A stretch of DNA of 35,062 nucleotides. It comes from Sphaeroforma arctica JP610. Its lineage: Eukaryota. The notes under the pieces are model-generated. The model ran no database searches, was not told the origin of the DNA, and saw nothing but the letters and a program-made list of their open reading frames with translations. The translations under genes and the position numbers were made by a program. Position 1 is the stretch's first letter, and every line of letters starts with the position of its first letter. Below, piece by piece: positions 5,991 to 26,208 of the stretch. The stretch spans positions 12,986-48,047 of the forward strand of contig NW_014039935.1 in NCBI RefSeq assembly GCF_001186125.1, given 5' to 3'.

Positions 5991-7069
5991 AACATTCATA
6001 TTAAGTTTTTCTTGCTTAGGTATTAAACGAATATGCTCCTCACGAGATCTTTCCCAACTTTGGTATCTGGTAAAACATTTATAGCTCCATCCAACATAAT
6101 AATATGTTTTTATTCTCCAGCAGCATTCTCGCGCCTGGTGAAAGACCATCCAAGGGACTACCTGAACCGGCCACAAACTTTTTCCCCAGTGATAACGAAT
6201 CCGCACACAGCGCCACCGGTGCCGACTACTTACCAATACATCCGATTGCTTCTTAATCCCGAGCGACCCTTTCTTTCAAGTCGGGCCCATTCCCGGGCGC
6301 TCTGAAACACACGTTCAGTGACTCGCTTGTACGCCGCGCTTTCCTCACTTCAACCCCATATTCCTCTTCTTCCAGATAGTTCATCCAATGAGCAGATCAT
6401 ACGATTCTATAAGAATATCTGTGACGACAGCAGGATTTCCTGGCACGTCCGCGTGGCCGCTTCCGTCGTGTTGTATACTGTCGTGCCGGGAGATAATTTT
6501 TATTATTATCATGTTCTGTGTTCTGTATATATGGCATGCTTGCAGGGTTCTGACATATCCCTGATGCCCTGGTTGCTTAAACCCAGCATCCGACCTCAGA
6601 GGGTGGGTTCAACTCCACCTTGGCACCTTTGCCCTTTATTTCCTTTTCCTGGGCCTTGATGTCCTTGACAGGGCTGTTGTCTTTAATCTCCTTCAGGCCT
6701 TTCGTCTGTTTCAACCACTCCTTTCGCATGTGATACTATCAGTCCTTGGTTAGATTGTTCTTCGGCCAAAGCAGCGTAGTCACAGTTGCCCATTTTCATT
6801 GCTCTATGGCAGGCAACTATCCAACCTCAACTGCAGAAAACGGAACTGTCAGTTTGTAGCCCAGTTCGTGTACCTGCAGTTCTATCACTCGAGCCAAACA
6901 TGACATATATTTTTCCAGCCCTCGATTCTCAATTTCCATATTCAAGACCATCTCCGTTGGGCTCATCCATAGCCCTTGGTAGTACTAGCTCTCATCGCCA
7001 TCTTTCCCAATAGCTCAGAAACAAAAAAAAGGGGAGGGGGGGGGGGGGGGGGGGTTCTCTGTCTTCGTT

Positions 7070-7441
7070 NNNNNNNNNNNNNNNNNNNNNNNNNNNNNNN
7101 NNNNNNNNNNNNNNNNNNNNNNNNNNNNNNNNNNNNNNNNNNNNNNNNNNNNNNNNNNNNNNNNNNNNNNNNNNNNNNNNNNNNNNNNNNNNNNNNNNNN
7201 NNNNNNNNNNNNNNNNNNNNNNNNNNNNNNNNNNNNNNNNNNNNNNNNNNNNNNNNNNNNNNNNNNNNNNNNNNNNNNNNNNNNNNNNNNNNNNNNNNNN
7301 NNNNNNNNNNNNNNNNNNNNNNNNNNNNNNNNNNNNNNNNNNNNNNNNNNNNNNNNNNNNNNNNNNNNNNNNNNNNNNNNNNNNNNNNNNNNNNNNNNNN
7401 NNNNNNNNNNNNNNNNNNNNNNNNNNNNNNNNNNNNNNNNN
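7070..7441. other. Assembly gap (others at 19645-19664, 23252-23558, 29908-29927, 31885-32008)
   Basis: Runs of N, each next to a homopolymer, microsatellite or tandem array. Confidence 0.99.
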
Positions 7442-8470
7442 GGGGGGTTGTTCCTGCTGTTTACCTGCTGGGTTGTTAGTGCCGGCAGTTTCACTCTAAT
7501 TCCACGCTTCTCCTATTTGCTGATAGATTTGTATACTTCGGTGTCCGAATCGTCGCTCCTCCAGGTTGTCGCAGACGTTGAGGCCTATCCCCTCCCGCCG
7601 CCGAATTTGCCACGGCTGGCCATTCCTGTCTTGCGGGAGGAAGCATATGGTCCCAACTCAGGATGTTTTAAGGAGTCCATCCGCATCAATTCTTCCATTT
7701 GACCCACGCATCAGCTTTTCCACCGAGTTCAGTCGAGTATACACTGTTACTTCCGCTCGACACTGGTCGTTTCCCGCCTGTTGCGATTCTGAGACGGGGG
7801 TGACTGGTGCTGTCTTGTTTCTCAAATTCCCACACAATCAATTCTTCGGTGCAACCACGGAAAGAGATTTCCGGGGCCGCATTGAATGCAGCCCGGGGTT
7901 GACCCTGAAAGATATGCCCAAAGAGTTAGGTATTTTGGGAACACAATTCAAGAAAACACACATCGTCTCACCTGACACTTGACGGTATCCATTCTGATAA
8001 AAATTGATGTACCACCATAAAATTCCCGCCACTTGTTGTGCGATGGACTCGTCAGTAGTTTCCTAATAAGAAAGCACCTTAATTGCATGTTAATTGCATG
8101 TTTATAGGAGGTAATAGCCAAAAGTCATGCAGTAGCCCAGAGCTCATCTGCAACAAGATTAATTTATTCAACCTGTCTACTGTAGACGTACTTTAGTAAG
8201 CGGTTCCTTTCTCACTTTAGGTGCAGAAAGAGAATATGCCGAATCCGAGCCCCAATGTACCGCTTTTTATACACCAATTGCGATCAAGGCTTGAATTTGG
8301 CCCACTTTTCAAAAATTGTATCAGGTTACTTCGCTGATTGTTAGCAATTATTTTGCAGAAATCTGCAAATGGAATTCTGAAGGAGATCTACTACAGACAT
8401 TAATGGCGGAACGTGTACAGCCTTTCTTATTAAAACACTTGAGTGTCTAGTTTGCGAAGTAGTTGTGCTT

Positions 8471-8639
8471 GAAAAAGAACTTGTCTGTATGTACACATTG
8501 TGATAAATCTGTACTTAGTGATTCCACTAAGTGTTCACTATGGTTATAAACTACCAGAAAAAGAACTTGTATTATGTACACATTTTTATAAATTTGTACC
8601 TAGTGATTCCCCTAAGTGTTCACTATGTTTATAAACTAC
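8471..8639. repeat. Tandem duplication, ~86-bp unit x2
   Basis: GAAAAAGAACTTGT at 8471 and 8557, both ending TTATAAACTAC. Confidence 0.9.
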
Positions 8640-11549
8640 TAATTCTTTGGCATATTTTTATCGAACAACTCTGCAATTAGTATTGTAGAATTTGCTTTTA
8701 AGGCGATTACTTTGAGACGAAAATTTACATACCCGGAAACAATGAATATGCATCTCCAAATTTTATAGTTGAAGAGTGTTCTGATTGGGACTTCTGTGTT
8801 GGCATTGAGCTACTTTGATGCTTTCTCCGGTAACGGCGCGATCTTTCTCGCCCCTTGCCATCATCCTCATCTACGTGTACTTTCGAATCATTTCTTTTCT
8901 GATGTGAACTTTCAAGTTCATATAAGATGTTGGATTGAACACGTGACTATACTTCAGCAGTTAGCGGCTCTACTGCACTTCGCCAAACCTTAATTGAGTA
9001 TACAGAATCTATCAGTCTTTGAAGTATTCGCTTCTTGCATGTCAGCCAATGTATCCACTGATTGACGTGAAGCTCGTGGATACTTTGGTGCCAACACCAT
9101 TCCTTTACCTTTGCTAGGTGAAGAGTGTCAATATTCAGAGACTATGATTTCAGTTTCCTCTGTAGGAGCTCTTTCACCATTTCTCTTTGAGTCTACATCC
9201 ATGGGCTGTTTATTAGCAACTTTTGAACTGGCTGCAACAGTTGTGTTTTTTTAAAAGTTTAAATGCTTCATCTTTAAATCTACTAGCCTAGTCGTAGATC
9301 TGTCTCATATTCAGTGGAAATATCTATTGGATGATCTGAAGCTATAGAAGCTTCATCCGTTGTCATTTTAGACATTGATTCTTTATTATGCGACGTATTT
9401 TTTTTTAAAGCTTTCCCTCTGTCCCTGCGATGCTTGCAAGATTTATTCTTGAGCTTCATTAAGGAATACTTTGGCTACTATTTCTTTTCGCTTAGTTTGT
9501 GGGTAAACCCTATCGGCTTTTGACTCTCGGCATTTTCTTCTTCTTAGGCTTGTCGTTCTCAGAGGGCATGTTGAAGAATGAAGCTACCAATGTTTTATAC
9601 TCAAGTGATATTCAAATATTTGTCTATGTTATCATAGTTAATGTATTGTTTGGTATGTCGATACATGATAGTATCACTTAAGCAACAAAAAGGTATAAAT
9701 GAAAACGCAAGTATAAACTCAAAAAATGTTTTTTTTTCTCTTCTTCTTCACATAAGTGTATTTTCGACATGTCGTCAATATCCCTGCTACCTTTTAAAAG
9801 TAAATTAAATATGTAAACCGACGAAAGAAGGAATAGTAATCGAGATGTAAGACAATTTATTAAAATAGAGTATTAGTACACGATAAAAAAAGTGAGCTTG
9901 CTGCTTACGACTTAAGTTGTATCAAAATGAGACCTTACCTGGTGATGTTCTGCTTTCTTTTATAAATCCAGTTAGATTCTCTTTTTTTAGTCAAAGTTGA
10001 CGGTTGGCACTTTAGGCGCCAAATTAATCTCTATAGAGTAATTCTTTCCTATTCATAGAAAGTCCAAATTATTTTGACTTCTAGTAAAAGGGTTTAATTG
10101 ACTGCTTTTAAAGAAGAAAACGAAAAGTTACTTCCGGTCCCCGTGTTGATGTGGTAGACACTAGGAAAAACATAGTTTATAATTATCAGCTTATAAAAAC
10201 CAAACCCATCAGATTCATCTTTTGAAAGTGAACCATTTTAGTCATTTTATACAGTATCTTATAGAAGGAAAATATATATTTTACAGATGACAAGGCTCAT
10301 ATATAACTTAAAAACTATAATGAGTTATGCATTATTAATATAGAGCTAAAAGCGTTAGCTTAATTGGGGAAGGTTCATAGTGTACTGCTAAATATAACTC
10401 CATCTTCTAACCAACAGTTTGTAACTTCATTCCTATTCACTTGTTCACAACGCTATGCAACATAGCTGCGTGTGCGACACTAATATTTCGAGAAGTCCAC
10501 TATACTAAGGTCTAAGCTCACAAATAATTGTTCAATTTGAACATAGCCCAGTCTGAGACTTTAGTTTAAATTTTCTCAAATACAAGTATCTTTAGCTTCT
10601 TTGTCAAATGTAGAACCATCTCCTCCTGCGTGTCAATGTTATATTGTAAACCTGTTATCTTTATACCTATCGAAAATCACCCATACCTACTACTAAGTCG
10701 GTACAAATCATTTGTATCTTCTGGCTGCTTTTAATACTTATAATTCGTGTTCTACTGCATGTACATTTCATATATTTCGTCTCTGAATGTTTCTGGATGA
10801 CAATTTATACATCGATTATCCCATCAAGACTTTAAATGTAACTTCATCACGCTCGCAAGCTATTGCGAACGTAATTTTCTTGCTACTAGATTCCAATGCT
10901 GAGGCAGACCCTAACGAAGTCGTATACGACAATTGTAAAATAAGTGGCAGTGTCGATGGCATCGGCAAGTTTCTCTACATCTTCAACATTCTTCAGCCGT
11001 GTACACGTTCTTGTTAGCAGGTAATACCTTCGACTGCTTGAGTTATACTGTTTTGGTCCGAGTTACTAGGGGTATTATTATTTATTTCAAAGAAGATAAG
11101 TTACAATGTATGTACATATGGTACGGCTCTCCTAGCCGTTGTAGTGGTTCGGGGACGATCGATGGGAAAAAGTGGTCAGTAAATGCTATTTTGTCGACGA
11201 TGGAGGATGTGCGGGTGCAATAAATCTCGAACATACCGTCGTTGCTACATTTTCTGTTGCTACGACTGCACTTGATGTGGTATTTGTAGTTGAAATTGAT
11301 ACGACTGCATTAGCAACCGAAATCAACACAGGTTGCGGAGTCAGTTCTAGAACGCTCACTGGAGTTGGAGAAGGTAGCGACATCTATTGGTCTACTGGGT
11401 ACCAGCACGCGCTTGCTGGTGGGCACCAGCATGTTGTACTTCCGCACAGTCATATTGATATATGCACTACTTCACCGTCAGCCTTCGTGTCTGTATATGA
11501 AAGCATAGTGATGAATAATATTGTTCCACTTGACATATGAAGAATCGAC

Positions 11550-12093
11550 ATCTGACCTGCATGTTTGTGCGTTCTATCTTTTGTTTCTGTATTCGTTGTA
11601 GATATGTGTATGTCGATGGGTTGATTTTATGACATTATTGCGGTCACAACATTGCCATTAAACAAAAGTGGCGATATTTTGCTGTGTTGAAAGAATACAT
11701 TTTCATTCACTTTAGCGACAAATCACTATAGTTTAGCAACTTAACTGTTTTAGGTTGTCCCATTTATTTCAGTGTAAGTATGAAAATATAAATTAATATC
11801 ATCTGACCTGAATGTTTGTATGTCCCATTTTCTGTTTGTGTGTGTCGATATTGTAGATATATATGCGTCGATATTGTAGATATGTGTGCGTCGATATTGT
11901 AGATATGCGTGCGTCGATATTGAAGCTATGTGTGCGTCGATGGTTTGATGTTATGAAAATTGTGATCACCACATTGCTCCCAAACAGACAGTGGCGGCAT
12001 TCCTGAGATTCGTTAGCTGTTGTGTTGAGAGAATATGCATTTTATTGCTACATTTCCCCTCATTGTAGCGATAAATCACTAAAGCTTTGCGAC
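11550..12093. repeat. Diverged tandem duplication whose second copy has an expanded 23-bp minisatellite (~11843-11940)
   Basis: ATCTGACCTG at ~11550 and 11801. Unit GCGTCGATATTGTAGATATGTGT occurs about four times in copy 2. Confidence 0.8.
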
Positions 12094-12348
12094 ATATGTC
12101 AGTCTTTACACATTTGAAAACTAAAATATAGTAGACTCGTTAAGACTGACCCTAACCCTAGCTCTGCGCACAAGGCAGACTTGATTTTGGGATTTCCTAT
12201 GGGTTAATATTTATCTAGAACTAGACAGAATAAACAGCTCTGGTAGGCTGCAAAGTGTGGAGAAAACTATATACACGGTACAGGGATGGTGAGCAGATAA
12301 ATGTGCCTAGATCGGGTGATGAAAAAAATAAGTCTTCAACATAGGACA

Positions 12349-12359
12349 TAAAATTAAAA
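12349..12359 (-). terminator. RNA polymerase III oligo-T terminator of the tRNA gene
   Basis: TTTTAATTTT begins 3 nt after the discriminator base on the minus strand. Confidence 0.55.
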
Positions 12360-12362
12360 GAT

Positions 12363-12434
12363 TGCCTCCGCATGGGATTGAACCATGGACCTTCACATTA
12401 CGAGTGTGACGCGATACCACTTTGCCACAGAGGA
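12363..12434 (-). tRNA. tRNA-Thr-CGT: tRNA-Thr, anticodon CGT (atypical U1:C72 and A12:C23 mismatches; possibly a pseudogene)
   Basis: Reverse complement is TCCTCTGTGGCAAAGTGGTATCGCGTCACACTCGTAATGTGAAGGTCCATGGTTCAATCCCATGCGGAGGCA. Perfect anticodon stem TCACA/TGTGA with loop CT-CGT-AA; perfect T arm CATGG-TTCAATC-CCATG; A and B boxes present; no intron. Confidence 0.92.
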
Positions 12435-14002
12435 TATGGTATCGTGTAATTTCTTTTAATATAAAAAACATTTTGAAAAAAAAACTTTTCTATTGCACTT
12501 GCTCTATATTTAAATATTTATTTACATTTAGATATCATATTGTTTGTTTTTATAGCAGATACTCCCGGAAGGATTGTAACAGAGGTAAAACTCTGAGACT
12601 AATTATGGGATTTTTCCGATCTGAGGGTTCTTCACCACAACTCTAGATATGAAGGACTGATAGACATATACGCACAGGCGTATAGCCGCCAAAGTGTATA
12701 TATACGCGTAGCTATAATCATTCCTACACCAGAATTAGCCACAACCGTTAGCCTGATTCAATTTGTATTCACCAGTGCCTCTAAGAAAACCCACCCACTC
12801 ACACCATTACTTTAGATATACTAAATTCCCATCTCACTTAATTCCAATACGATATAACATCGACGGGCATCAGCGTCGCCGAACAGCCCTAGTGTTATGT
12901 CCGGCTGCGCCGTTCTGTCTGGCTCCGCTGATAGTGTCTCCGACACTCTCAGGTCTAACAGTTCAGCAAAGCCAACGGTCTAAGTTTTATTTCTAAATAA
13001 ATTCATATTTACTATTATGTTGTATGTTTTGAGATATAATTTATATTTGCCAAAAACTACTGTACTAACGGGGATAGGGCAACATCATACAGGACAAAAT
13101 TACTTCAATCAACTAATCATCGTTTCCTTTTTAAACTACTTCTTGCAGACTGTACTTTCAAGGTAATGAAGCACTACACTGACGGACTGGGAGTCTCGCG
13201 AGTCTGCTTATATGCTAGGGGACAAGGGATTAGCATCACGAAGCACCTGCAACATGCCAGCTTCATGTGTATATCCAACGGGGAGACATATGCATCTAGA
13301 AGGTATATTTATATATGGTATCAAAAATGTACGCCAATAGGGTAAGGAGATGCGTAAAACGCGCGTGTTGTTTCCCGGGACATTGCGTATGCAGAGCCTG
13401 GTCTTCGGGGCCAGCTGCACCTGGCTATTGATAGATCTGGTATTTAAAATACAAGACCTAATTAATCTACCAAATGCGGAAAACTTTATCAGATAAAGCA
13501 TACAGCAGGAAAACCTCAGTTTCAATAAATCAAACCCCGACCTGATATATATATATAATATAGTATAATATATATATAATGTCGGAAACATAATTAATTG
13601 ACACAGCACATCAGTAACGCAGTCTTTGCACCAAGCCATCAAGATTTTCCCACCACATTACGGCGTCTTTCTGTCTATTTCTTTCCAGAAGCAATGTAAT
13701 AAAATTTCAAATTTTGGGGATAGTGTTTATTTTCATGTGCACCATTTGATATTTGCATACTTTGAACTGTAGTTCATTTCTATAACTTGTATAAGGGGGA
13801 TATGCTACTAATATAAAGTTGAAGCATATCATATTGATTTCCTAATGGTGCATAGTATGGTGGAGCAATCTAACTAAATGTAATGGAATCTTCGGAATAA
13901 AGTTGGGGAGTTCCTGTCAAACCACTCACATATATATACGAGATACAACGGACGGTGCCTAAGGCCAACTCCCACCATATGTCTCAAACCTGCTTTCCAA
14001 TA

Positions 14003-15992
14003 TCAAACGTTGAATGCAGCCAGAAACTCCGCGGTGGAGTCGGTCTTGGGTCGCTCTGGTATGTGCAGTTGTCGGTGCGCCGCACTCTCTCCGAACGTCA
14101 GAGGGAAGCCCCAACCCCTCTCGACCAACAGCCTGTGCAAAGACAAACACTCCTCCAGTGCCATACCACCCTCTTCTGTAGAAGTACCAATACTATTAGC
14201 CGCCGCGGCTTTGCCCGATCCAGCAGCGGCTGATGACCCACCAGCCGCCTGTAAACTCGCGGTGGGGACAATAACGTTCTCGTTCGAGGTGTTGGTTACC
14301 ATGGCAATGAGATCCGCAACACTCGCCACCTTGGCCGGCACTTCGCCCATACTCAGCACCCGCACCTGTGCATTCGCGTCCCGGGCACCCCCCACAAACA
14401 CACTCAGTGCACGCCTGCACGAGGGTCGCTCAACCACCTTCAACTGGGTGGGCAAGTTCAGTGTCAGCGGAGGCTGAGACTGAGGAGGCTCTGCCTGTGT
14501 GTCAGGTTGAGGCTCGACTTGAGTGCCATTGGCTGCGTCAAGGGGCGCATGCGGCTGTGTGTCGGTTGGTGCGGTGAGTGGTTCGTGTGATGTTGCCAGA
14601 GTGTGGTCTGGGTCGTGTTCGAGTGGGGCGGTGAGTGGTTGGTGGAGTGATTCTACCGGCGCGTCCTGTGGCTGTGATTGAGTGTCTTCTACCGGCTTGT
14701 CCATTGTCTGTGCAGGTGGTTGCGAATGCTCCTGTGCCTGACCCACGAGTGGGCCCTCGCCCGCATCGGTCTGGTCTGTGCTACTGGTGTGGTTGTATTC
14801 ATGCGCACTGACATCCATGTGCGCTTCTTCCACATGGGGTTGGTCCACAGTACCACCGTTCGCGTTCTCCGAGTCCGCCTTGTTCACGTATATCTCGGGG
14901 CTCGTGGTGATGCCCGTGGGGTCTGTATCATTCGGGTGTGGCAGCGTGTGCGGGTACTGACCGACAGTCCCGCCCTCGCCCGACTCCATACCTCCCTCCA
15001 CAGTTACAGTAGGTGTGCCTTGCACATCTAAACCGTGAGGGTGTATCGCACTCTCCCCGCTACTGCCGTCTCCGTTCTGCAGCACCGCGAACGGCGCCAC
15101 CCCCACATCCAGGTGCCTCGTATCGAACGCCATCCCGGTTTCACCCGTCATCATTCCGTTGTCTCCCGCATGCATTTCACCTTCACCGGCCGTCATCCCG
15201 TTTTCCCCAATATCCATCCCGTTTTCCACGATATTCAGCGCATTGCCCCCCATGTTCACGTCGCTCTCGCCTGGGTGTATCCCGTTTTCAACGGGTGCAA
15301 CGGTTTCTGGGGCGGCTTCGGAGGCCGCAGGCATGGTATGCTCGTGCTGGGGGTCCTGCACATCTTCGTCCACCTTCTTACCCTCACTCGCACCCAACGC
15401 ATCGTCCGCAGACACGTGGTACTCCGCCTCGGCGCCCGGAGCTATGACCAGGTCTGTGCTATTTATAGACACTTCCGTATTAGGCACAGGACCCTCGGGC
15501 AGGGACAAGGACATGGGTTCCTCTATCGCCACAGTCACCTTCAAGGGCTCCGGCTTGGCAGGTACAGACGGTAGCCTATCAAGCACCACAAAGTCCAGTT
15601 GCTCACCCAACTTGCCCAGAAGCGATGCGAGCGCACTCTCCGCCTGTGACTGCGCCTCGGCCGCCGCAATACGTCCGTGGGCTGCCGCGTCTGAATCCGT
15701 ACCCATCCCGATATCCATACTCTGCTGCTGGTTTATCGCATCATCACCTGAGTCTGGCACGTATGCTGACGAGGGTGCGCCTACGGCATCGGCCGGCCCT
15801 ACACGGTCGTTCTCTTGTCCTGGACCTGGACCTTCTTTTGGGGCCTCCAGGTGCTCGAGGATATTGTATGGGATGAGTATGAGGCCTTGCTTACGCGTAT
15901 CTAAGCTCACAGATGCGAGCTCCTCAATGGTCGACGGAGTCTTCACTTCAAACCACGCCGGGAACGTTTGTTCTGCATACTCGGCCCATTCA
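14003..15992 (-). CDS. Gene 1 terminal exon 15 (rest of SNF2-like lobe with long acidic/Pro/Gln inserts)
   Basis: Contains the 647-aa ORF. Acceptor CACACAG|T (phase 2), TGA stop at 14005-14003. Confidence 0.9.
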
Positions 15993-18900
15993 CTGTGTGT
16001 GGAATAGTAGAGAGGATGGGGATTCAGGGGTTAGGGGTTATGCTTGCGTGGATGTGCGTATGAAATACAAGCAGAAGGTAACTGTACAGTTGAATGCACG
16101 ATAAGATCATCGGAAATGTACCACAGAATCCTCGCCAAAATGAGTACAAATATATGATATGCAAGTATGCACTAAACTATAATGACATGTGTATAAATGG
16201 AAGGTTCTATCTGAGGATACACATACATGCCACATCATCGACAAGCCTATACTCAACGACATTCCTTCAGATACACATATAACCTACCCAACCGTAGCAT
16301 CCGGACAGAACACCACCGACACAGACGCACGCGTCTGATGCATGGCCAACAGGGCTGTAAGCGGACTACACGCATCGCCATGCTGCACTTTGCTAGCGCC
16401 GCTCTCCACAGCCTTGTCGTCCGTGTTCTTATCCGCATTCACATCATTCGCATCTTGGGCGCGTATGTCCGCGCCTATCTCCCCGCTCACGTCTACGGGG
16501 TTGTCCTGGCTACCACCCGTCCCGCTTTCGGTCCCGGAATCCGTCTCAGAGCGCCACAGACAGAGTCCACCGGCATCCACCACCCGCTTCGATAGCTCAT
16601 CGGCGTACAGGCACTGCACAAGAGTGGGTAGCGTGTACACCTTCTCGTCCGTATCCTCCTCGTCCACACACATGTTAATAGACGGAAGGGTGTTGCCGTT
16701 CAGGGCGTCGCCTGTATCGGGGTCGTTGGGGTTGGCCTGTGCCTGTGCGTCTGGTTTGCCCTTGTCCGTGTCTTGTGGGCGTCTGGTGTGGTAGTTGTAC
16801 CGAGACGGTACATTGCTGCGCGAGTTGAGCGCCGCGCTATACTGCGCGTTGAACTCAAAGGTCAGCTGGTTGTTGTGTTGCTTCAGAGTACCGAACTGTT
16901 TGATGATGAGGTGCGCCAATCCGTTGGCGTCCTCGATCTCATCACCGGCGGTCTCATTGGTCGCCGGGTTCGCATCATCGGTGTTCCCTACAATCTGATT
17001 GGCGCTCACACTCACGTCCTCCATATCCATATTCAGGCTTAGATTACTGCTGTGTGCGGTATCCGCAGTTGCGTTTGGCACAAACGCACTCTGATCCGAC
17101 TCACCCACCGCAGCGTCATTGATATCGGTGTTCAAACTGATCTCGGAGGGTTCTGTAAGTCCGGCCAAGGTAGCTGGAGGCTTGGATGCGGGTTTCTTGA
17201 TCTTGGAGCCCGCCACCACCTAATCGGGGAGAAATGACAGGGGTTAACATGGCTAATATATATATATATAATACTCAAGTATAGAATAGAAGACATTCTA
17301 TATGTAATACACCAGATGAAGTATCGTATCATGGTTGTTCTATAACACAGCATGGCCAGCCTAGTGCATATCTATAGTATAGACACCTCAGAGCCATGGA
17401 GCACATATAATTCATAAGCAGACTGCTAAGAATCACGCACACACTCACGAAATATAAGACAAACCCCACACACCCCTTACAATAAACCACAAATACACAA
17501 TACTTAAACCAAATAAGTCATTACACACACGGACAAAAAGCACCGCCTATACCCGACACAGTACACACAGCGATAAACCACTAACACACACATACAACAT
17601 AAGCATACCATCAAACATCAGAAAGACACCTGCACATGCACAAATCATAAACCATTTAAACACACCAGTACATACACAAACCATACAACATTCAAACACA
17701 CCCGCACATACACAAAACCATCAAACATCACAACACACCTGTGCCCACAGGCGCTGCAGGCCACAGCGCACGAAGAAGTCCGCGTACCGCTTGTCAAACC
17801 AGGGCGTCGCAGTAGCGTTGTGATACATCTCCAGCGCCTTGATCACCTGTACGTCCCCATGGCACGTGCACGTGAGAGGGTGTGCATGGTTAGTCGCAGC
17901 AGAGAGTGCCGGCGAGTGAGCGTGTTTGGGTGCCAGTGGCTACGACTGAGTAGACCACTTGGGTTCACGTAGAATCGTGTATATACGATTGTAAGCACAG
18001 TATCAGTAGTTGAGACGGATGGTGTGTGTGTTTGGGTGCCAGTGCATTGCGTGAATTGAGACGGATGACGGGTATTTCCGATCTTCAGGTGTATGTGTAT
18101 GTGTGTATGAGCGCGTGGTTAGAAGTGTGGATGAAATTAACAAAGGGCGTATGATTCTCATGTGTATGCGACAGCCCACTTGCACGTGGTGGGTTGTAAC
18201 GAATTGGGCGATAGAGTATGACCCCTATCGAACAAGCCGAGCCAGGGCAGACCATAGTCCTGCAATGTCTGAGAGAGTGTGGGTAAAGGGTGTCTGGACT
18301 GAGGAAACACCTATCATAGGTACGGCAGAGTCTGAGTAAAGACGTCAGTATAGTAAGTGCGTGTAGGGTATATGAAACGTAGAGGGAAGCGAAGACCAAT
18401 GCTGCACTGACTCACAGACTTGGATTACAAAGCCGCAGTAGGACATAGAGGCAAACATACAAGCAATCACCCCAAGATGACCGGAAAGATTAACGTATAC
18501 TGGGCTGAAGCACCCCCACACAGAACGTAAATGATATAAATCTAGATTAAATTCTGCAAATCCAGACGTTTGTGAATGTATATACACTGGGGATTGCACA
18601 AACTACAACTTACCGCGTCGAAGATGTCCTTCTCCGCAGGCACCCCAAAGATCTCAAACGTGCCCACGCGTCCAACCAGAACGCGTTTATTTTTATCCAC
18701 ATCTCCGAGCTCCGTCACATCGCCAGCCGGTTCATTCGCACCCGCCCTGGCATTGGTCTCCACATCGCTTGCCTTGGGTGCTGCGCCTGCCTTCGCGGCC
18801 TTCTCCCTCTCAACTCGCTTCTCCTTTTCGGCACGCAGCACTTGCTCGATCACGGTGGGCGGGGGGTCCCAACCGACAAACACACGCAGCTCTTCATACG

Positions 18901-21900
18901 AGTATGTGCGAATGGTTTTGAGTAGGACCTGTAGGTAGATGAGATATGGATATTGGTAGGTAGGTAGCTGGTTAGAAGACTACATATCCTGTAAGCGCAT
19001 GAGCATGTATGTATATGCATGCGCGCACATCTATGCATAGGTGCAAATATGTCCACCGAAGTAGAATCAGAGTTCACGCCGATGCTGTGAAGATATTATT
19101 GATAGTTCACGACGTCCAACCACAGTCGACAGCGCTCCGTTTGTGACAGTCCTTTCCCACATCACCCCCAGACACAAACAGTAAACAAGTCACAGTCACA
19201 TACCACTACACGTGCGTAGCTACTGATATATGGCCCCTCCCACCAAGCTCGCCTCATTGAACGTACGAGAAACACTAAACAAGTCACAGTCACATATCAC
19301 TATGCGTGCGTAGCTACTGCTGTATGGTCCCTCACACCAAGCTCACCTCATTGAACGTACGAGAAACACTAAACAAGTCACAGTCACATATCACTACGCG
19401 TGCGTAGCTACTGATGTATGGCCCCTCCCACCAAGCTCACCTCGTTGAAACGTACGATAAACATTAAACAAGTCACAGTCACATATCACTACGCGTGCGT
19501 AGCTACTGATGTATGGCCCCTCCCACCAAGCTCACCTCGTTGAACGTACGATAAACATTAAACAAGTCACAGTCACATATCACTACGCGTGCGTAGCTAC
19601 TGATGTATGGCCCCTCCCACCAAGCTCACCTCGTTGAACGTACGNNNNNNNNNNNNNNNNNNNNACGTAGCTACTGATATATGGCCCCCCCCACCAAGCT
19701 CACCTCATTGAACGTACGGGAGCGTGGATGTGCAGCCGAGTACATATTAAACACGGTGTGCAGCTCCGTCAGTGAATAGTCATTCAGTAGCAACCCACTC
19801 GCACTCGCCGTGTCACGTGACCCCAACAGCGCCGCCACACAGCGACGTACACCGTCCATTCCATCGGCAACACGCGGGCGGACGGCCGCCCCCCGCAGCT
19901 GCCCATATGAGGCAGGCTGCGGATGCCCATATAAGGGAATCTGCGCGGGCAGCATGCCCGTGCCGACACTCGGCGCATCGGTTGGTCCGAGCTCGTCCAT
20001 GGTAGGTAGCATGGTGCTCCCGTCTCCGGGCAGCAGCTCCACCTGCGGCTTTGCCTTGAGCCCCAGGGCCTTACACTTGGTACAACCGCTGCGTTGCTTG
20101 CGCTCGGCAATGAACACGTGCGAGATGTCTGTGGTGCAGCCGAATAACACCTTGCGTTTGGCGGGGAGTGCCTTGAACTGATCGGCGTTGGCTATACGCA
20201 CCACGCCTGTGTGTACAGAGGAGGGTGTTATAGGAAGAGTGAGTGGGGTTTTATCAGGTGAGTGAGTGTGATGCAATAACAGAGAATGGGTCACGGGAAG
20301 AGTGAGTGTGGTTTAGTATCAGGTGAGTGAGTGTGGTTTAGTATCAGGTGAGTGAGTGTGGCGCAGTATCAGACAGTGTGTATCGGGAGCCATGTACTAT
20401 ACCAACACAAATGGCTATCCACCGCAACAGAGTGTGCCGGGAGTGCCCTAGAGTGCGTCTAACCGCAAGCCAAGCCAAGCCCTCCCTAAGCATACTCTAC
20501 ACCGCCAAAGCCACAGAAACCAAACACCCAGCCGTGTCACCGTGCACACACTCACCATTGGTACTCTCCATGATAAGCCTCTCCAGATTACGCACCACCT
20601 CGTCTCGGTGTAGGTTGGGTGGGGCGAACATGTCCTCGTCCGCGTTTCGGCCGGGCAGCAGGTACATGGGCTGCACAGTGCAGTTAGCGCAGCCATTGAC
20701 CCCACAGAAACGGCAGCCGCACGCCACGGTGCAGTACCCGGGTTGGATGACCTGGCGAGAGTGTGTGTAGGTAAGAGAGTGGGAGTGAGAGAGTGTGTGG
20801 GGAAGTGTGGACAGGACGTCCCGGCCCGTGAAGTTCGGAACATACACGGCAGATTGAACTGATTTGCACCATTCTTCTACGTATATACATGTGCATAATA
20901 TATATGGCCTTACAAACCCAAACCCAAGCACAGACGCACACATACCAGGCGTATTTGTGAGGTAGTATACATGTACATAATATATGGTCTTACAAACCCA
21001 AACCCAAGCACATACGCACCCACGCCCGCTCACACACATACCAGGCGTATTAGTGAGGTAGTATACATGTACATAATATATGGTCTTACAAACCCAAACC
21101 CACCCACACCCGCTCGCACACATACCAGATGTATCTGTGAGGTACTGCCACTGGTTATCATCAGCGGCTCGGCAGTGCCCAGGCCTTGGCTGGAGTTCTT
21201 GGAGCGTTGCTTGAGATCGGCGATTTCTCGGTTCATCGTACACTGGGTGCAGCCTTTCTTCTGCTTGCGCTCGGCTATGAAGAAGTGCTTGAGATCGGCC
21301 GTACACCCGTACACCACCTTGCGTTTCTCGGAGAGCTTCTCGAATTGCTCCACGGTGCGTATGCGCTTGCACTTCTCGCCGGCTGGAGAGGATAGGGGCG
21401 GTCGAGTGCGCCGAGATGGGGGTGAGTGTGGCAGGTAAGACACTTGGAGAGTCTCTTGAGGAGTACGGGGATTAAACTTTAGAAGGACGTGTGCGTAGAT
21501 AGGAGGGTTGACATATGGTTGGGTGTCTTGAACAGTTATGTGTATAGATGTTTCTCGGAAGTCACGAGACGTATACATGAATACGTACACACGGGTGTAA
21601 TGTCTTTTGCAAATAGACCGAGCTCTCCCACTTGGGCCATATTTAGGTATGTCTCATTATATGTGTCACTATACAAACCTTCACTGTGAGTGGCAGTGGT
21701 AGTGGTGATGATGTACGTGCGGTGGTATTCACATAGCTATTTATGGATCTCTTTCACACCACACACACCCATCTCTAGACTGTCCAGGTAGGCCACAGCG
21801 GCAGCCTTAGTGGTGACGTGCGCAGGGATAGTGGGCACATGGGACAGATTGCGCCCCGCCAGTTCAAACATGGGCTGCACAACGCACCTGGTATTGACAA

Positions 21901-24900
21901 AAGAAAGCCGAATCTATAAATAGAATGTCACAGGGCTTGATACTTGCGGCGGATATAAAGTACATTTTGAAGGGCCAAATATAGAGATACAATCGACTCC
22001 GCAAGGTTTAAATAAGGAAAACAAATGCCATGCCGGTTTGTCCCTACATATGCACACACCTTTATGCGTACAGACATATTATATGTACACCTATCATACA
22101 CACACACACATACCTCTTAAATCGTACAGACATATATATGAATACACCCTTTTCATATCAACACATGTACACACATACCTCTTTTAAATCGGACAGATAT
22201 ATATATATATATGAACACGCTCTTTTACATACCAACACATGCACACACAAACATCTTTCTCTTAAATCGTACAAACATATATACACACACACTCTTATAC
22301 ATACCAACAAATGCACACACACACACACACATCTCTGCGTGCAGACATGTATATGCACACCTATCACATTCGTCCTCACAGTGTCGGCAGGGTTTCTTGA
22401 CGCTGATGTAGTTGAGGTCGCGCGTGGGTTTGTGCTCCGAGGCCATTTGGTTGTTGTCCATATCGTTGTTGGGTGTGTCATTCAGATGTCTGCATTGGCG
22501 GCACCCCAGTTTCTGTTTACGTTCGGCGATGAACATGTGGTCCACATTGCGGATGCACCTGATGCATAATATTTTTGGGTGGTGGATCAGGACAAAATTC
22601 CGAGCTTGTCTTTTGTTTTGACTGTAATTCCTATGCCGACGAACAATGTGCACTGGATTAAGCGTGGCTAAACACACATACACACACTTATATATATATA
22701 GATAGATATAGATATGTACATATACTTTACTCACATGTATGCATCGAACAACATCGACATGTACAGTCAGATATATAGCAAGTCACACACACACACACAC
22801 TTACACACATACGCAGGTGTATACATAAGACAATACCCATGCACGCAGGTGTATATATACAAATCACCCACAGCCACCCACACGCACAGATGCGTGCAAT
22901 ACACGCACTCACCCATAGACCAGCTTGCGCTTGGCATAGAGCTGCTCGTAGTGACTCACGGAGCGTATGCGCACCACCCCGGGATGCTTCAGGCCCTCAA
23001 TATGGGACACAAAGTCCTTTCTGGTGCTGAGGGTGGGGGGTAGGAACTCGTCTGGGTCAACCAACCGGCCGGGGAGGTCATACATGGGCTGGATAGCACA
23101 GGATGCACACCCTTCATTGTTACACTTGCGACAGCCTTTCATCACTGCGGAGGTGAGTGGGTGTGGGTGAGGCATGGGCTGAGTGAGATAAACAGAGCCG
23201 AGAGGGTAGAGTATGCACACCCTTCATTGCTACACTTGCGACAGCCTTTCANNNNNNNNNNNNNNNNNNNNNNNNNNNNNNNNNNNNNNNNNNNNNNNNN
23301 NNNNNNNNNNNNNNNNNNNNNNNNNNNNNNNNNNNNNNNNNNNNNNNNNNNNNNNNNNNNNNNNNNNNNNNNNNNNNNNNNNNNNNNNNNNNNNNNNNNN
23401 NNNNNNNNNNNNNNNNNNNNNNNNNNNNNNNNNNNNNNNNNNNNNNNNNNNNNNNNNNNNNNNNNNNNNNNNNNNNNNNNNNNNNNNNNNNNNNNNNNNN
23501 NNNNNNNNNNNNNNNNNNNNNNNNNNNNNNNNNNNNNNNNNNNNNNNNNNNNNNNNNNTCATCACTGCGGAGGTGAGTGGGTGTGGGTGAGGCATGGGCT
23601 GAGTGAGATAAACAGGGCCGAGAGAGTAATAAAGCATGCACACTCCTCATTGGTATACCTACGACAGTCTTTCCTCACTGCGTAAGTACACACCCCTACA
23701 AGACGCCCTACCTGTGACAAAATCGGCAAGACCATGGCCCTTGGCACCCGTCGCAGTAGGGCCCAGGGCGTTGGTGCTGGACCCGGAATTCACTATTCCC
23801 ATGGTAGACCCGGGTAGTGGTGCGGTGAGTCGATCGCCTGTTTGGTACGCGGACGGGTTTGTACTGGGAGAGGGTACTCCGGGTAAGGATGCCGAGTACG
23901 TATTGGTATAGTTGAGCTGAGTCCTGTAGGGATCTGGTACGAGGACGAGGAAAGGAATAGGAGTGTAAGGGATGATTTATATATATTATTCGTTGGGAGG
24001 GGGGGGGGGGGAAACAAACAAACAAACGCATTTATAAGGGTATACATGTAACGTAACAGTTTATTGCTTGTCATAGCAGGGGCGAGTTGATCGCTGGGAA
24101 AGGACACGGACAGGGGATTACGTAAAGTACGTATTCATATACGGACTTATTCAATCATACAGAGTTTGCTGACATCTGGGAAATACCTTGAACGTAAAAA
24201 CATGCGAACGCATCTGTGGTTTGTCATCTCCCATATCTGTTGCTAACTCGGATTGATTCGTCTGCAAGGACACCGTGGTGTGCAAACCTTTACGATGCTG
24301 TATGACTTGCAGCATGTGAGCTCATACACACACACACATATATATATACCCATACATACCCATACACACACACATATATACATCCCTTGACGCTAGCATC
24401 TGTAGCATTCCCATACCTGCTGCCTGGTCGTACTGATTGGCATACAAGGACACCATGGTGTTCGGGCTGGGTGTGGCATTGGCGTTGGGTGGCATGGTCA
24501 GGCTCACTTGCGACGGCACGGCAGTCAAGGGGAACTCTTTGGGGTCACCGGTCCTTTCTAGCAGACATTGAGGACAGCCCTTTTTCTGCTTCTTCTCGGC
24601 CACGAAGAAGTGGGGGATGGTGTTGAGACACATGTACAGTAACTTCTTCTTATCTACGAAGGTGGAAGAGAGAAGCGGGTGGTTAGGGTGTGGTATGTTT
24701 ATGCCACACGTGAATTGATACAGCTCTACAATTGCGTTGATGAAGATCGACTCCATCTGGCCCTCTCCCCTATTCTCTCGACGCATACAACTCACACATA
24801 GAGACCACGTACACATATGTGTATAGTTTATGTATACAAAGCAGACAAATATAAAAAAATCAATATAATATAATATAATATAATATATATACATGTACAT

Positions 24901-26208
24901 TTCCTCTTGCAGATATTTCACCACCACACATCACAGCAACGCTACACATACCTGGCAATGTTTCGAACTGGTGCGGGTGGGTGACGTGCATAATGTGGTC
25001 GTCGTGTAGATCGCGCAGATGCGTTAGCAGTTCCCTGGGTAGAACAGAGTGCGTGGGTAGGTAGTATTCTATTAATAGATCTTCGAGCGGTTCTACAGTA
25101 GGTAACAAAGGTACGATCACATACACTCAGAGACGAGAAGGTACCACGCCTCAAAACTGAACAGTAAACCGCACGTCCTTACAGGATTCTCAAGCGTCTA
25201 TAGCTCATCCAAACGGCAACATAAAAGAACCGCCCCCCCCCAAAGGGAAAACCCAAGAACCCAAAGTATGTGGAATGGCAAAGGCCGGGGGTGTACCAAC
25301 CTCAAGCCCATGGTCGGTGAAGGGCAGAACTGTGAGATGTCGATCTGTCGTCCGGGCAGCACAAACATGGGCTTCACACAGCACACCACACAGCCCACTA
25401 TGCCCGTGCAGTACTTGCAGTCCTTCTTGACGGCTATGAAGCTCATGGGCGCGTCCCAGTCCTGTGAAAGGGGACAGGTAACGGGGACAAAAGGACCGGG
25501 TGTTTTGTGACAGGACAATATGGGGTACGGTATAACAACCGCTTGTTTGACCGATATAGAGATCATGGGTGGACCTTATAGGGAAGGGAATACTAAGGGC
25601 AAAATGAGGACATTTTGGTACCCCCGCCCAAAAAAAATCCTTGTGGTGTTTATAACCTTTTTTTTAACGGTCAAAAAGCACACGAGTGCTTTCTAACACC
25701 CAATCGTAATATTCCAAATAGGAGTTACCCATATGGTACGTTTGAAATGAGTGCCAGTGCATGCATGTGACTCAAAACGTAGCACACCACACAGCCCACT
25801 CCCCCGGTGCAGCACTTGTAGTCGTTTCAGGATGATACAGAGCGCCAAAAAGTATCCCACAGCCCCCAATTTTGATAAATTTGGCCGAGTTTTCGGAAAC
25901 GAGAAAAGAAATTGCTACAGGCACGCATACCAGCAACCACTTATACACAACACCTATAAACAATTTCATTTACATTCCACAGGTAACTACATATAAACAA
26001 TATCAATAGCAAATGAAACCGCTACCTATGCACCTAAACGCAGCCATATATACTCAATACATAAATGTAAACACGTGTACATAATATATAATACTCCAGT
26101 CGAGCCACTCAGAGACAGGGGTCATACGGGTGTGGCAGCTTTGTACGTCTTCTTGCGCTTGGAGACCATTTCGGTGACGCCGTAGCCGTCTGCCGGGCGT
26201 TTCTCCAT
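14003..26208 (-). CDS. 15-exon gene, 1877-aa protein: 4 tandem Cys/His (putative zinc-binding) modules + unknown middle domain + degenerate SNF2-like ATPase N-lobe
   Basis: Hand-spliced exons: 26208-26128, 25461-25301, 25034-24952, 24653-24417, 23933-23712, 23144-22913, 22558-22361, 21887-21769, 21382-21126, 20751-20556, 20206-19704, 18928-18614, 17846-17739, 17219-16288, 15992-14003. All introns are GT-AG with matching phases. Total 5634 nt = 1878 codons from ATG to TGA. Splicing restores the internal protein repeats across junctions. The product call is by eye from motifs. Confidence 0.85.
16288..17219 (-). CDS. Gene 1 exon 14 (acidic low complexity + start of SNF2-like lobe)
   Basis: Matches the 311-aa ORF. 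Acceptor CGATTAG|GTG, donor GG|GTAGGT (phase 2). Confidence 0.88.
17739..17846 (-). CDS. Gene 1 exon 13 (VIKALEMYHNATATPWFDKRYADFFVRCGLQRLWAQ), absent from the ORF track
   Basis: GC-rich island within a CA-rich intron. Acceptor GTACAG|GTG, donor CAG|GTGTGT; 108 nt, phase 0/0. Confidence 0.8.
18614..18928 (-). CDS. Gene 1 exon 12 (VLLKTIRTYSYEEL...KDIFDA)
   Basis: Acceptor CCTACAG|GTC, donor GCG|GTAAGT; 315 nt, phase 0/0. Confidence 0.85.
19182..19718. repeat. 94-bp tandem array (at least 5.5 units, contains a gap) overlapping the exon 11 donor
   Basis: TAAACAAGTCACAGTCACA at 19182, 19276, 19370, 19465 and 19559. Confidence 0.95.
19704..20206 (-). CDS. Gene 1 exon 11 (module 4 C-half + start of middle domain)
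   Basis: Acceptor CACACAG|GC, donor GAG|GTGAGC. Confidence 0.85.
20252..20371. repeat. Short intronic repeat (GTATCAGGTGAGTGAGTGTG, ~25-bp period)
   Basis: Three to four imperfect copies in intron 10. Confidence 0.75.
20556..20751 (-). CDS. Gene 1 exon 10 (module 4 N-half CRFC..CANC, QPMYLLPGR)
   Basis: Acceptor CTCGCCAG|GTC, donor ATG|GTGAGT. Confidence 0.85.
20880..21144. repeat. 84-96-bp tandem array (x3) overlapping the exon 9 donor
   Basis: Repeated ATAATATATGGyCTTACAAACCCAAACCCA...CACATACCAG. Confidence 0.9.
21126..21382 (-). CDS. Gene 1 exon 9 (module 3 C-half KRKVVYGC..HFFIAERKQKKGCTQC)
   Basis: Acceptor CTCTCCAG|CC, donor CTG|GTATGT. Confidence 0.85.
21769..21887 (-). CDS. Gene 1 exon 8 (module 3: CVVQPMFELAGR...), absent from the ORF track
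   Basis: Acceptor ATACCAG|G, donor ATGG|GTGTGT. Phases 2/1 fit both neighbours. Confidence 0.85.
22361..22558 (-). CDS. Gene 1 exon 7 (module 2 end, module 3 start)
   Basis: Acceptor GCATCAG|G, donor AG|GTGTGC. Encodes HMFIAERKQKLGCRQC and KKPCRHCEDECDR. Confidence 0.85.
22913..23144 (-). CDS. Gene 1 exon 6 (module 2: CRKC..CASC, QPMYDLPGR)
   Basis: Acceptor CTCCGCAG|TG, donor GG|GTGAGT. Confidence 0.85.
23103..23683. repeat. 110-bp tandem array overlapping the exon 6 acceptor (largely within an assembly gap)
   Basis: ATGCACACCCTTCATTG at 23103 and 23213; CATCACTGCGGAGGTGAGTGG at 23140 and 23560; diverged copy at 23636-23683. Confidence 0.88.
23712..23933 (-). CDS. Gene 1 exon 5 (S/T/G/P-rich linker)
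   Basis: Acceptor GTACCAG|AT, donor ACAG|GTAGGG. Open in the required frame; phases 1/1. Confidence 0.75.
24417..24653 (-). CDS. Gene 1 exon 4 (module 1 C-half KKKLLYMC..H..KQKKGCPQC + linker)
   Basis: Acceptor CTTCGTAG|AT, donor GCAG|GTATGG. Confidence 0.85.
24952..25034 (-). CDS. Gene 1 exon 3 (module 1 middle)
   Basis: Acceptor CTACCCAG|G (phase 2), donor CCAG|GTATGT (phase 1). Confidence 0.8.
25301..25461 (-). CDS. Gene 1 exon 2 (module 1 N-half: CKYC..CVVC, KPMFVLPGR)
   Basis: Acceptor CTTTCACAG|GAC, donor AG|GTTGGT. Confidence 0.85.
26128..26208 (-). CDS. Gene 1 exon 1 (MEKRPADGYGVTEMVSKRKKTYKAATP; basic NLS-like KRKK)
   Basis: ATG at 26208, donor CCC|GTATGA, phase 0 matches exon 2. 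The start codon is not independently confirmed. Confidence 0.65.

What the first reader, a model, noticed from the sequence alone, without database searches (positions are those of the whole stretch)
14100..16620. Catalytically dead, lobe-1-only SNF2/SWI2-like ATPase hidden by large acidic insertions
Seen, in order: LVQCLY..AGGLCLW; an acidic insert; LTALLAMHQ..SVVFCPDATVG|EWAEYAEQTFP (across the exon 14/15 junction); KQGLILIPYNIL; LDFVVLDRLP; a ~370-aa insert; RRALSVFVGG; VADLIAMV; ECLSLHRLL; stop. Knowledge: this order parallels the SNF2 N-lobe, namely GGILADEMGLGKT (Walker A), LVVCPxSxxxxWxxE (Ia), VxITTYxxL, FDxVILDEAH (Walker B), RxxLTGTP (III), ELxSLL and LHxxLxPFxLRR. Here GKT is absent, DEAH reads DRLP, and the protein ends with no second RecA lobe. 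Inference: a pseudo-ATPase scaffold, loosely analogous to the partial SNF2 domain of plant MOM1 or the helicase-lobe-like domains of yeast Hda2/Hda3.
Basis: partly seen in the sequence, partly recalled or inferred. Interest (0 to 1): 0.82.

Follow-up and report, generated by a model that had tools for sequence, protein, structure and literature searches.

The report
Dead half of a remodeller motor
A spliced gene shared by two single-celled relatives of animals encodes four cysteine-rich repeats and then a domain predicted to fold like the first half of a chromatin-remodelling motor; it lacks the ATP-binding loop and the whole second half, so it likely works as a non-enzymatic DNA or chromatin adaptor.

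Summary
Largely confirmed, with corrections. The stretch is the end of a 15-exon, 1877-aa gene (Sphaeroforma arctica SARC_07680). Spliced contigs in 4 of 4 runs laid keep the exon 14/15 joint and run through the stop. One orthologue was found (Creolimax CFRG6542); it lacks the acidic inserts and also ends after this domain. Its AlphaFold model matches SF2 lobe 1 (Z up to 12.5, rmsd about 3-4 A; 10 of the top 12 wide-search rows are Snf2-family). A Snf2 lobe-1 profile scores both proteins above 1000 of 1000 shuffles; lobe-2 and DEAD-box profiles do not. Walker A is replaced by an insertion in both. Corrections: motif III is VRVLSMGEVP, not RRALSVFVGG; Walker B keeps DE in Creolimax; the inserts are not conserved. 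MOM1 and Hda2/3 keep lobe 2, so this is their mirror image. Upstream lie four conserved, basic Cys/His repeats with no Pfam match. Snf2 membership is probable, not proven (no database-level hit); function is inferred.

The parts
14003..26208 (-). whole gene, 15 exons (26208-26128, 25461-25301, 25034-24952, 24653-24417, 23933-23712, 23144-22913, 22558-22361, 21887-21769, 21382-21126, 20751-20556, 20206-19704, 18928-18614, 17846-17739, 17219-16288, 15992-14003), 1877 aa
24559..25437 (-). Cys/His repeat 1 (aa 36-140; exons 2-4)
   Evidence: 62% identical to the Creolimax copy; coordinates
22489..23724 (-). Cys/His repeat 2 (aa 258-362)
   Evidence: 68% identical to the Creolimax copy
21234..22410 (-). 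Cys/His repeat 3 (aa 389-494)
   Evidence: 62%
20067..20742 (-). Cys/His repeat 4 (aa 534-642). All 8 copies of the two species keep CxxC, CxxC, C-x5-H and CxxC; second half weakly like DUF4379 treble-clef fingers
17217..19850 (-). conserved, predicted helical middle region (aa 715-905), fold not identified
   Evidence: 35% identity; helices at pLDDT below 50; only generic helical matches, Z up to 5.9
16782..16925 (-). conserved predicted helical hairpin before the lobe (aa 1003-1050)
16542..16637 (-). start of lobe 1: first helix (TLPTLVQCLY...) and Walker A strand (GGLCLW)
   Evidence: structural matches start here; profile alignment puts GVCLWKD on iLADEMG
16374..16541 (-). acidic insert 1 (aa 1131-1186), lying in the P-loop position; 9-residue insertion in Creolimax; GKT lost in both
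15857..16373 (-). helix after the P-loop, motif Ia (SVVFCP...EW, across intron 14), invariant WFEVKTP, and the GLILIPYNIL strand
   Evidence: 51% identity; pLDDT about 50-79
15662..15841 (-). insert 2 (aa 1266-1325)
15569..15598 (-). motif II / Walker B strand: LDFVVLDRLP (Creolimax IDLVIMDEIM)
14438..15565 (-). acidic insert 3, 376 aa, absent in Creolimax; carries in-frame indels in a close relative (run X20)
14375..14422 (-). helix after motif II (SCRRALSVFVGGARDA); not motif III
14291..14365 (-). motif III strand VRVLSMGEVP and the following helix VASVADLIAMVTN
14096..14155 (-). last conserved helix (LSLHRLLVERGWGFP), where Snf2 chains have their first family-specific helices; low confidence
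   Evidence: 12 of 50 rows extend here, all Snf2-type chains; pLDDT below 50
13716..14002 (-). transcribed sequence past the stop (3' UTR as far as contigs reach)
   Evidence: contigs do not fix the true end

Best explanation
The gene encodes four conserved Cys/His repeats and a C-terminal domain predicted to be a Snf2-type lobe 1 without a P-loop and without lobe 2, and it likely works as a non-catalytic chromatin adaptor: the basic repeats would bind zinc and DNA, and the dead lobe would serve as a docking surface for partner proteins. Shown: gene structure, the stop after the lobe, loss of GKT in both species, loss of the Walker B Glu in S. arctica only, absence of lobe-2 motifs, conservation of the core segments and not of the inserts. 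Predicted: SF2 lobe-1 fold (about 0.9), Snf2 ancestry (about 0.75). Follows from established SF2 chemistry: no ATP hydrolysis or translocation, since the Walker A lysine and the lobe-2 arginine fingers are both required. Inferred: nuclear location (N-terminal KRKK in both species), zinc and DNA binding by the repeats, protein rather than DNA binding by the lobe (it is more acidic than 91-93 of 94 canonical lobes).
For: Fold: model of the insert-free orthologue (2 sequences, no templates); residues 293-507 match SF2 lobe 1 in all 50 rows of the wide search (best Z 11.8, rmsd 3.2, 165 aligned; SWR1 11.7/3.4/153; INO80 11.5/3.7/156) and SRCAP 12.5/3.8/157, ISWI 12.0/3.2/143. The Chd1 range 372-592 contains K407 and not R804/R807, so it is lobe 1. 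Sequence: Snf2 lobe-1 HMM (81 sequences) 12.6 bits for the insert-stripped and 7.8 for the uncut S. arctica protein, 9.4 and 5.9 for Creolimax, 0 of 1000 shuffles reach either cut form; lobe-2 HMM -2.1/-1.8; DEAD-box HMM -1.4/-1.3. hhalign to Snf2 lobe 1: probability 67.8, E 4.9e-5, 154 collinear columns, 0 of 60 column and 0 of 60 block shuffles, against 1.0 for DEAD-box and 2.7 for phage SF2. ESM Atlas features: Snf2 N-terminal clusters first, 0.90. Constraint: 38-57% identity in core segments; 8 of 8 coding length changes in run X20 are in frame and outside the core. Repeats: 8 candidate ligands invariant in 8 of 8 copies, K+R exceeds D+E in 8 of 8. Precedent: Hda2/Hda3 use a dead SF2 lobe in a chromatin complex (PMC7793584).
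Against: No Pfam family passes for either protein; no PDB sequence hit under E 0.5. Foldseek best E 4.1e-3 is archaeal XPB and the top wide-search row is the restriction enzyme LlaBIII; Z values of Snf2 and other SF2 chains are tied within 1. The HMM scores are single-sequence values, far below canonical Snf2 lobes with Walker motifs masked (median 167.6 bits, in-sample), and 2 of 56 masked phage SF2 lobes reach 12.6 bits. A RapA-like profile gave no profile-profile signal (32 of 200 block shuffles and the reversed query scored higher). The Atlas hit shares only 140 of 256 features. The Walker A region and the last helices have pLDDT below 50. The S. arctica model itself is poor (mean pLDDT 31.5; best Z 5.9). 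The only library hit in the lobe is a DnaB-like PHROG (E 6.8e-4). Only two full sequences exist; no functional data. The MOM1 lobe proved dispensable (PMC2507757).
Confidence: 0.55

Rival explanations
1. The lobe is a slowly decaying remnant, as in Arabidopsis MOM1; the function sits in the Cys/His repeats alone.
For: Repeats are better conserved (62-68%) than the lobe segments (38-57%). S. arctica tolerates inserts of 56, 60 and 376 aa inside the lobe and has lost the Walker B Glu. MOM1's partial SNF2 domain can be deleted without loss of silencing (PMC2507757). Among 36 changed codons listed for run X20 the C-terminal part has 6 silent and 7 replacement changes against 8 and 15 in the insert: too few to show strong constraint.
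Against: Core segments keep 38-57% identity, with an invariant WFEVKTP and LYAxExSKRV, while neighbouring loops keep none; both species stop at nearly the same point after the last helix; indels avoid the core.
Confidence: 0.17
2. The domain is a dead lobe 1 of another SF2 family (XPB/RadD/ResIII-like or DEAH), not of Snf2.
For: XPB heads the Foldseek list, LlaBIII the wide list, and 25 of 50 wide rows are not Snf2 chains (family labels from titles and my knowledge). The Creolimax lobe also scores 3.2 bits on a phage SF2 profile, above 1000 of 1000 shuffles. ResIII clusters appear in the Atlas list at 0.88.
Against: Profile-profile probability 67.8 for Snf2 against 1-3 for the two other sets; only Snf2-type chains extend the structural match over the last helices (12 of 12 such rows); 10 of the top 12 rows are Snf2-family. 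XPB, RecQ, DEAH and Ski2 profiles were not built.
Confidence: 0.15
3. A half motor that pairs in trans with a lobe-2-only protein, or with lobe 2 of an active remodeller, to block or aim it.
For: A heterodimer with a lobe-1 partner was once proposed for MOM1 (PMC2507757). The Creolimax lobe keeps DE at motif II and a TGEKP-type motif III, which face lobe 2 in intact enzymes (my knowledge).
Against: Without Walker A the pair could not bind ATP in the normal way; S. arctica has also lost the Glu and carries a 376-aa insert right after motif II. No partner could be sought: no genome is held.
Confidence: 0.1
4. The likeness is chance: a generic alpha/beta domain, or an active enzyme of another kind.
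For: No database-level sequence hit; model mean pLDDT 42.
Against: Z 11-12.5 over about 155 residues with SF2 chains filling all 50 rows, above the tool's 7-8 background; motifs fall in Snf2 order over 154 columns; lobe 1 and not lobe 2 is matched.
Confidence: 0.03

Closest known systems
Snf2-family ATPase lobe 1 (SWR1/SRCAP, INO80, ISWI/SNF2h, BRM, ALC1, CSB, Rad54, SSO1653; Pfam PF00176)
   Same: Predicted fold and order of elements from the first helix to the helices after motif III; motif Ia pattern, DE at motif II in Creolimax, motif III-like strand.
   Different: P-loop replaced by an insertion, no GKT; no His in motif II; Glu lost in S. arctica; no lobe 2; more acidic; 8-16% identity in the top structural alignments; no subfamily can be assigned (Z tied).
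Yeast Hda2/Hda3
   Same: Single SF2/Snf2-derived lobe without ATP-binding motif, kept as a non-catalytic module (PMC7793584, passages).
   Different: They resemble the second helicase domain, which binds DNA, followed by a coiled coil; here it is lobe 1, C-terminal, acidic, behind Cys/His repeats.
Arabidopsis MOM1
   Same: Large protein with half of a SNF2 domain left after degeneration (PMC2507757, passages).
   Different: MOM1 keeps lobe 2 (motifs IV-VI), derives from CHD3 and works without the remnant; no PHD, chromo or other Pfam domain was detected here.
DUF4379/CapR treble-clef zinc fingers (PF14311, PF21817)
   Same: Second half of each repeat has K.K...C..H.F.A......GCxxC like the WxCxxGHxWxA...CPxC unit; tandem copies.
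   Different: C-x5-H instead of C-x3-H, unit about 105 aa with an extra CxxC-x3/7-CxxC and a LPGR motif; evidence weak (Atlas 0.82; hhalign probability 30; no Pfam hit).

Membership tests
SF2 helicase-like lobe 1 (RecA1) | RecA-like alpha/beta lobe with SF2 topology | tested here: met
   Creolimax model, Z 11.8-12.5, rmsd 3.2-3.8, 157-165 aligned for the best rows; 50 of 50 rows SF2 chains. S. arctica model inconclusive.
Snf2 ATPase (active enzyme) | Walker A / motif I (GxGKT) | tested here: not met
   No GK[ST] in S. arctica; the one GKS in Creolimax (aa 869) lies in an unconserved linker outside the lobe; the aligned position holds an insertion and E-N for K-T.
Snf2 ATPase (active enzyme) | Walker B / motif II DExH | tested here: not met
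   DRLP in S. arctica, DEIM in Creolimax.
Snf2 ATPase (active enzyme) | Motif Ia and motif III in order | tested here: met
   SIVFCVNSMVSEW on LIVcPasL..nW and VRVVSTGEKP on LTGTP in one collinear alignment; degenerate.
Snf2 ATPase (active enzyme) | Lobe 2 with motifs IV-VI and arginine fingers | tested here: not met
   Lobe-2 HMM at shuffle level for both proteins; no QxxGRxxR; both proteins end; spliced contigs run through the stop.
Snf2 ancestry | Family-specific helices after motif III | tested here: inconclusive
   12 of 50 rows extend into this part, all Snf2-type, and the post-motif-III helix aligns, but pLDDT is below 50 from model residue 500 on.
Snf2 ancestry | PF00176 match at the curated cut-off | tested here: not met
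   No hit at E <= 10 for exons or whole proteins; the insert-stripped form was scored only on my own profiles.
Snf2 ancestry | Phylogenetic placement among Snf2 subfamilies | not tested
   No eukaryotic Snf2 sequence set was held; signal too weak for a tree.
Snf2 ATPase (active enzyme) | DNA-stimulated ATP hydrolysis | not testable with these tools
   Needs an assay.
DUF4379 treble-clef zinc finger | C-x2-GH-x-W...CPxC unit / PF14311 match | tested here: inconclusive
   No Pfam hit; Atlas 0.82, a level a third of shuffles reach; hhalign probability 29.7, E 5.6e-4, 0 of 200 shuffles in two controls, but the template was chosen after the lead.
ISWI/CHD SANT-SLIDE (middle region, seen by eye) | SANT and SLIDE folds | tested here: inconclusive
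   No Pfam hit; region modelled at pLDDT below 50 and barely tested by the fold searches.

The most novel reading that the evidence does not exclude
A dedicated half-motor decoy: a new class of tandem zinc fingers brings a Snf2 lobe 1 stripped of its P-loop to chosen DNA sites, where it captures lobe 2 of an active remodeller (or a lobe-2-only partner) and so blocks or aims remodelling; the lobe-1 mirror image of MOM1 and Hda2/Hda3.
Probability: 0.12. Interest if true: 0.82.

Novelty: new variant of a known kind. Interest (0 to 1): 0.52.

Why it matters
The two dead half-Snf2 modules I could read about (MOM1, Hda2/Hda3) keep lobe 2, and SNF2_N and Helicase-C domains co-occur in most remodellers (10.1101/2021.11.30.470311, passages). 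A conserved lobe-1-only form shows that the other half can also be kept after catalysis is lost, and it comes with an unclassified Cys/His repeat. It is invisible to Pfam, so domain-based surveys of chromatin proteins in close relatives of animals would miss it. The insert-free Creolimax protein makes it directly testable. Its reach is limited: two genera, no function shown.

Tried and rejected
Pfam, NCBIfam, PHROGs and PDB sequence searches: nothing significant beyond one DnaB-like PHROG at E 6.8e-4 and a HoxE model far under its cut-off. Word-index searches found only the protein itself and missed the orthologue that the full HMMER search found, so their blanks are weak; the search for shorter proteins with the repeats found 0 of 1067 candidates. 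The repeats were not in the query, so their range is barely tested. No whole genome is held: paralogues and a lobe-2-only partner could not be sought. No run is on record as RNA (no RNA holder listed); the four contigs laid are spliced, but they give no level or true ends. RapA-like profile: weak HMM signal (6 and 8 of 1000 shuffles), none by hhalign. The MPTG rows are stale copies of the DEAD rows (script error, repeated, fixed) and were dropped. AlphaFold of the S. arctica part with inserts: too poor to decide; rows matched lobe 1 and lobe 2 alike. SANT/SLIDE reading of aa 715-905: no support, not excluded. RRALSVFVGG as motif III: rejected. The Creolimax GESAVGKS as a displaced Walker A: rejected, not conserved. 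The repeats could not be folded alone because each spans two or three exons. Viral origin of both modules (Atlas neighbours are mostly short viral fragments): not supported, not testable; the gene has 14 introns. Earlier findings: none. Literature: no paper names the gene (four identifiers, main texts only); searches for a lobe-1-only or dead Snf2 gave nothing relevant (listings and abstract starts only). Supplements of the bioRxiv chromatin survey were not seen and might list the gene.
Full report
Gene. The finding lies in the last two exons of a minus-strand gene. Fifteen exons from 26208 to 14003, all 14 introns GT-AG, give one open frame of 1877 aa. The protein collection holds a 1877-aa protein, 100% identical over the parts compared, named by its source as hypothetical protein SARC_07680 of Sphaeroforma arctica; it is a singleton cluster without Pfam domains. 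Four runs of four studies, of 24 listed, were laid on 13600-17245. All four skip intron 14, continue from exon 14 into exon 13 sequence, and read unspliced through the stop, ending 155-287 nt beyond it. No joint leaves exon 15. Contigs cannot exclude a rare isoform, but the main spliced form has no exon that could add lobe 2. Run X20 (coded organism C, about 97% alike) has 7 coding indels and one duplication, all in frame and all in inserts or linkers; its two frame-breaking indels lie past the stop. With about 28% of this region being core, 8 of 8 outside it is suggestive only. Of its 89 substitutions 40 were shown; the 36 changed codons give 8 silent/15 replacement in the long insert and 6/7 in the C-terminal part, too few for a claim.

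Orthologue. HMMER over 1.84 billion representatives with aa 699-1877 found 2 proteins: the query and P0002 (E 9e-47), named Creolimax fragrantissima CFRG6542T1. It is 1287 aa, 46% identical overall, with the same architecture, without the three acidic inserts, and it ends just after the last conserved helix. Identity by region: repeats 62-68%, middle region 35%, lobe segments 38-57%.

Fold. AlphaFold on Creolimax aa 733-1287 with the S. arctica protein as the only other row gave mean pLDDT 42, but an alternating strand-helix core at about 50-79 for model residues 342-499. Foldseek found nothing at E <= 0.001; its best rows were XPB (4.1e-3), Isw1, ALC1, Rad54 and RadD. The wide VIA search over 48,161 chains matched model residues 293-507 to SF2 chains in all 50 rows shown: LlaBIII Z 11.8 (rmsd 3.2, 165 aligned), SWR1 11.7 (3.4, 153), INO80 11.5 (3.7, 156), BRM, ALC1 and CSB 11.3. 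By title and my knowledge 10 of the top 12 and 25 of 50 are Snf2-family. The second look at Foldseek's list gave SRCAP 12.5 (3.8, 157) and ISWI 12.0 (3.2, 143). The tool's background for models without a clear match is Z 7-8. The matched ranges are the first lobe: for Chd1, 372-592 includes K407 and excludes R804/R807 (10.1101/290874, passages). Twelve rows extend past model residue 514, all Snf2-type chains, but that part has pLDDT below 50. The S. arctica part with its inserts folded poorly (mean 31.5): best Foldseek E 0.46, best Z 5.9. Its secondary structure repeats that of the orthologue, and several rows span the 376-aa insert (Mot1 1331-1452, Z 5.2), but others match lobe 2, so this model decides nothing.

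Profiles. Pfam, NCBIfam, PHROGs and PDB sequences give no SF2 hit. I built profiles from contig loci carrying canonical motifs. Snf2 lobe 1 (81 non-redundant of 94 segments, from 238 loci): insert-stripped S. arctica 12.6 bits (E 2e-6 for one sequence), Creolimax lobe 9.4, uncut proteins 7.8 and 5.9; 0 of 1000 shuffles reach either cut form; reversed sequences about -2.8. Lobe 2 of the same proteins (33 of 39): -2.1 and -1.8, reached by 220 and 360 of 1000 shuffles. DEAD-box (70 of 76): -1.4 and -1.3. Phage SF2 with an MPTG-type Walker A (47 of 56): -2.3 and 3.2, the latter above all 1000 shuffles. RapA-like (37 of 42): 1.7 and 2.8, reached by 6 and 8 of 1000. Profile against profile, the two-sequence lobe matches Snf2 lobe 1 at probability 67.8 over 154 columns (0 of 60 column and 0 of 60 block shuffles), DEAD-box at 1.0, phage SF2 at 2.7, RapA-like at 1.1 with controls scoring higher. 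With Walker motifs masked, 1 of 76 DEAD-box and 2 of 56 phage SF2 lobes reach 9.4 bits on the Snf2 profile, while canonical Snf2 lobes keep a median of 167.6 (in-sample). The cut points of the stripped form were chosen by me after seeing the alignment. The Atlas ranks Snf2 N-terminal clusters first at 0.90 with a low shared count, 140 of 256. Reading: SF2 lobe 1 is well supported, Snf2 ancestry probable.

Motif map. GVCLWKD sits on iLADEMG; then comes an insertion (9 aa in Creolimax, about 56 acidic aa in S. arctica) and E-N where K-T should be, so the first insert occupies the P-loop. Motif Ia is SIVFCV..V.EW / SVVFCP..VGEW. Motif II is DEIM in Creolimax and DRLP in S. arctica. Neither protein has a motif VI. 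By established SF2 chemistry (my knowledge; for Chd1) the domain cannot hydrolyse ATP or translocate. Its net charge is -4.5 and -5.6 per 100 aa, matched by only 3 and 1 of 94 canonical lobes (loop residues included), which argues against DNA binding by the lobe although motifs Ia, II and III touch DNA in Chd1.

Rest of the protein. Four repeats of about 105 aa keep, in 8 of 8 copies, CxxC, CxxC, P..L.GR, L..K.K, C-x5-H, F.AE.KQ..GCxxC, and all are net basic. Each is closer to its counterpart in the other species (60-67%) than to any other copy (32-48%), so the four predate the split. The Atlas points to DUF4379/CapR treble-clef fingers at 0.82, a lead only; a profile of 162 such units (4 of 4 source proteins checked are PF14311) aligns to the second half at probability 29.7. 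The middle region (aa 715-905) is conserved and predicted helical, without an identified fold. Both proteins have KRKK near the N-terminus.

How it likely works. A nuclear adaptor: repeats bind zinc and DNA, the dead lobe offers a protein surface, and the S. arctica inserts are disordered loops at tolerated positions. Rivals: decaying remnant, other SF2 origin, half-motor decoy, chance.

Known relatives. [quoted passage not shown] This protein works like those dead half-motors but keeps the other half. It is not a member of the active Snf2 ATPases: Walker A, DExH and lobe 2 were tested and not met. No paper names the gene and searches for a lobe-1-only form found none (listings only); PMC11244446 (passages) adds only that Sphaeroforma lacks 5mC. 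Verdict: real, conserved, a new variant of a known kind; interest 0.52.

Noticed in passing
window 20067-25437 (-): Four conserved, basic Cys/His repeats of about 105 aa with 8 invariant candidate metal ligands, no Pfam family; possibly an undescribed zinc-finger type related to DUF4379.
   Followed up: partly
window 19176-19644: Intron 11 holds five copies of a 94-bp unit that repeats the exon 11 donor context; a short N-run lies at its upper edge. Possible alternative donors or an assembly artefact.
   Followed up: no
window 23144-23620: The start of exon 6 with its acceptor appears again on both sides of a 300-base N gap: tandem copies or a scaffolding artefact. The model uses the last copy.
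   Followed up: no
window 25700-25830 versus 25360-25430: Intron 1 contains a degenerate look-alike of part of exon 2 (seen by eye).
   Followed up: no
window 2114-2540 and 4994-5413: Two copies of a 420-bp element, 82-90% alike, 2.88 kb apart, each with an internal 31-bp tandem repeat; could be the ends of a decayed mobile element. The 9 frames of 100 aa or more that were scanned from 1-13700 gave no Pfam hit under E 0.05.
   Followed up: partly
window 33403-34527: Tandem arrays of 36, 63 and 39 bp, the last rich in TTAGGG-like words, and short AGGGTTTT runs at 31240, 31790 and 34720-34766: telomere-like words inside a contig.
   Followed up: no
run X16: Listed as DNA by guess, yet its contig is spliced, so it is likely cDNA.
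   Followed up: no
P0002 aa 460-542 and 1147-1211: Weak library hits: HoxE model (E 0.01, 15.5 bits against a cut-off of 224) over Cys pairs, and a DnaB-like PHROG (E 6.8e-4) over the Walker B strand.
   Followed up: no
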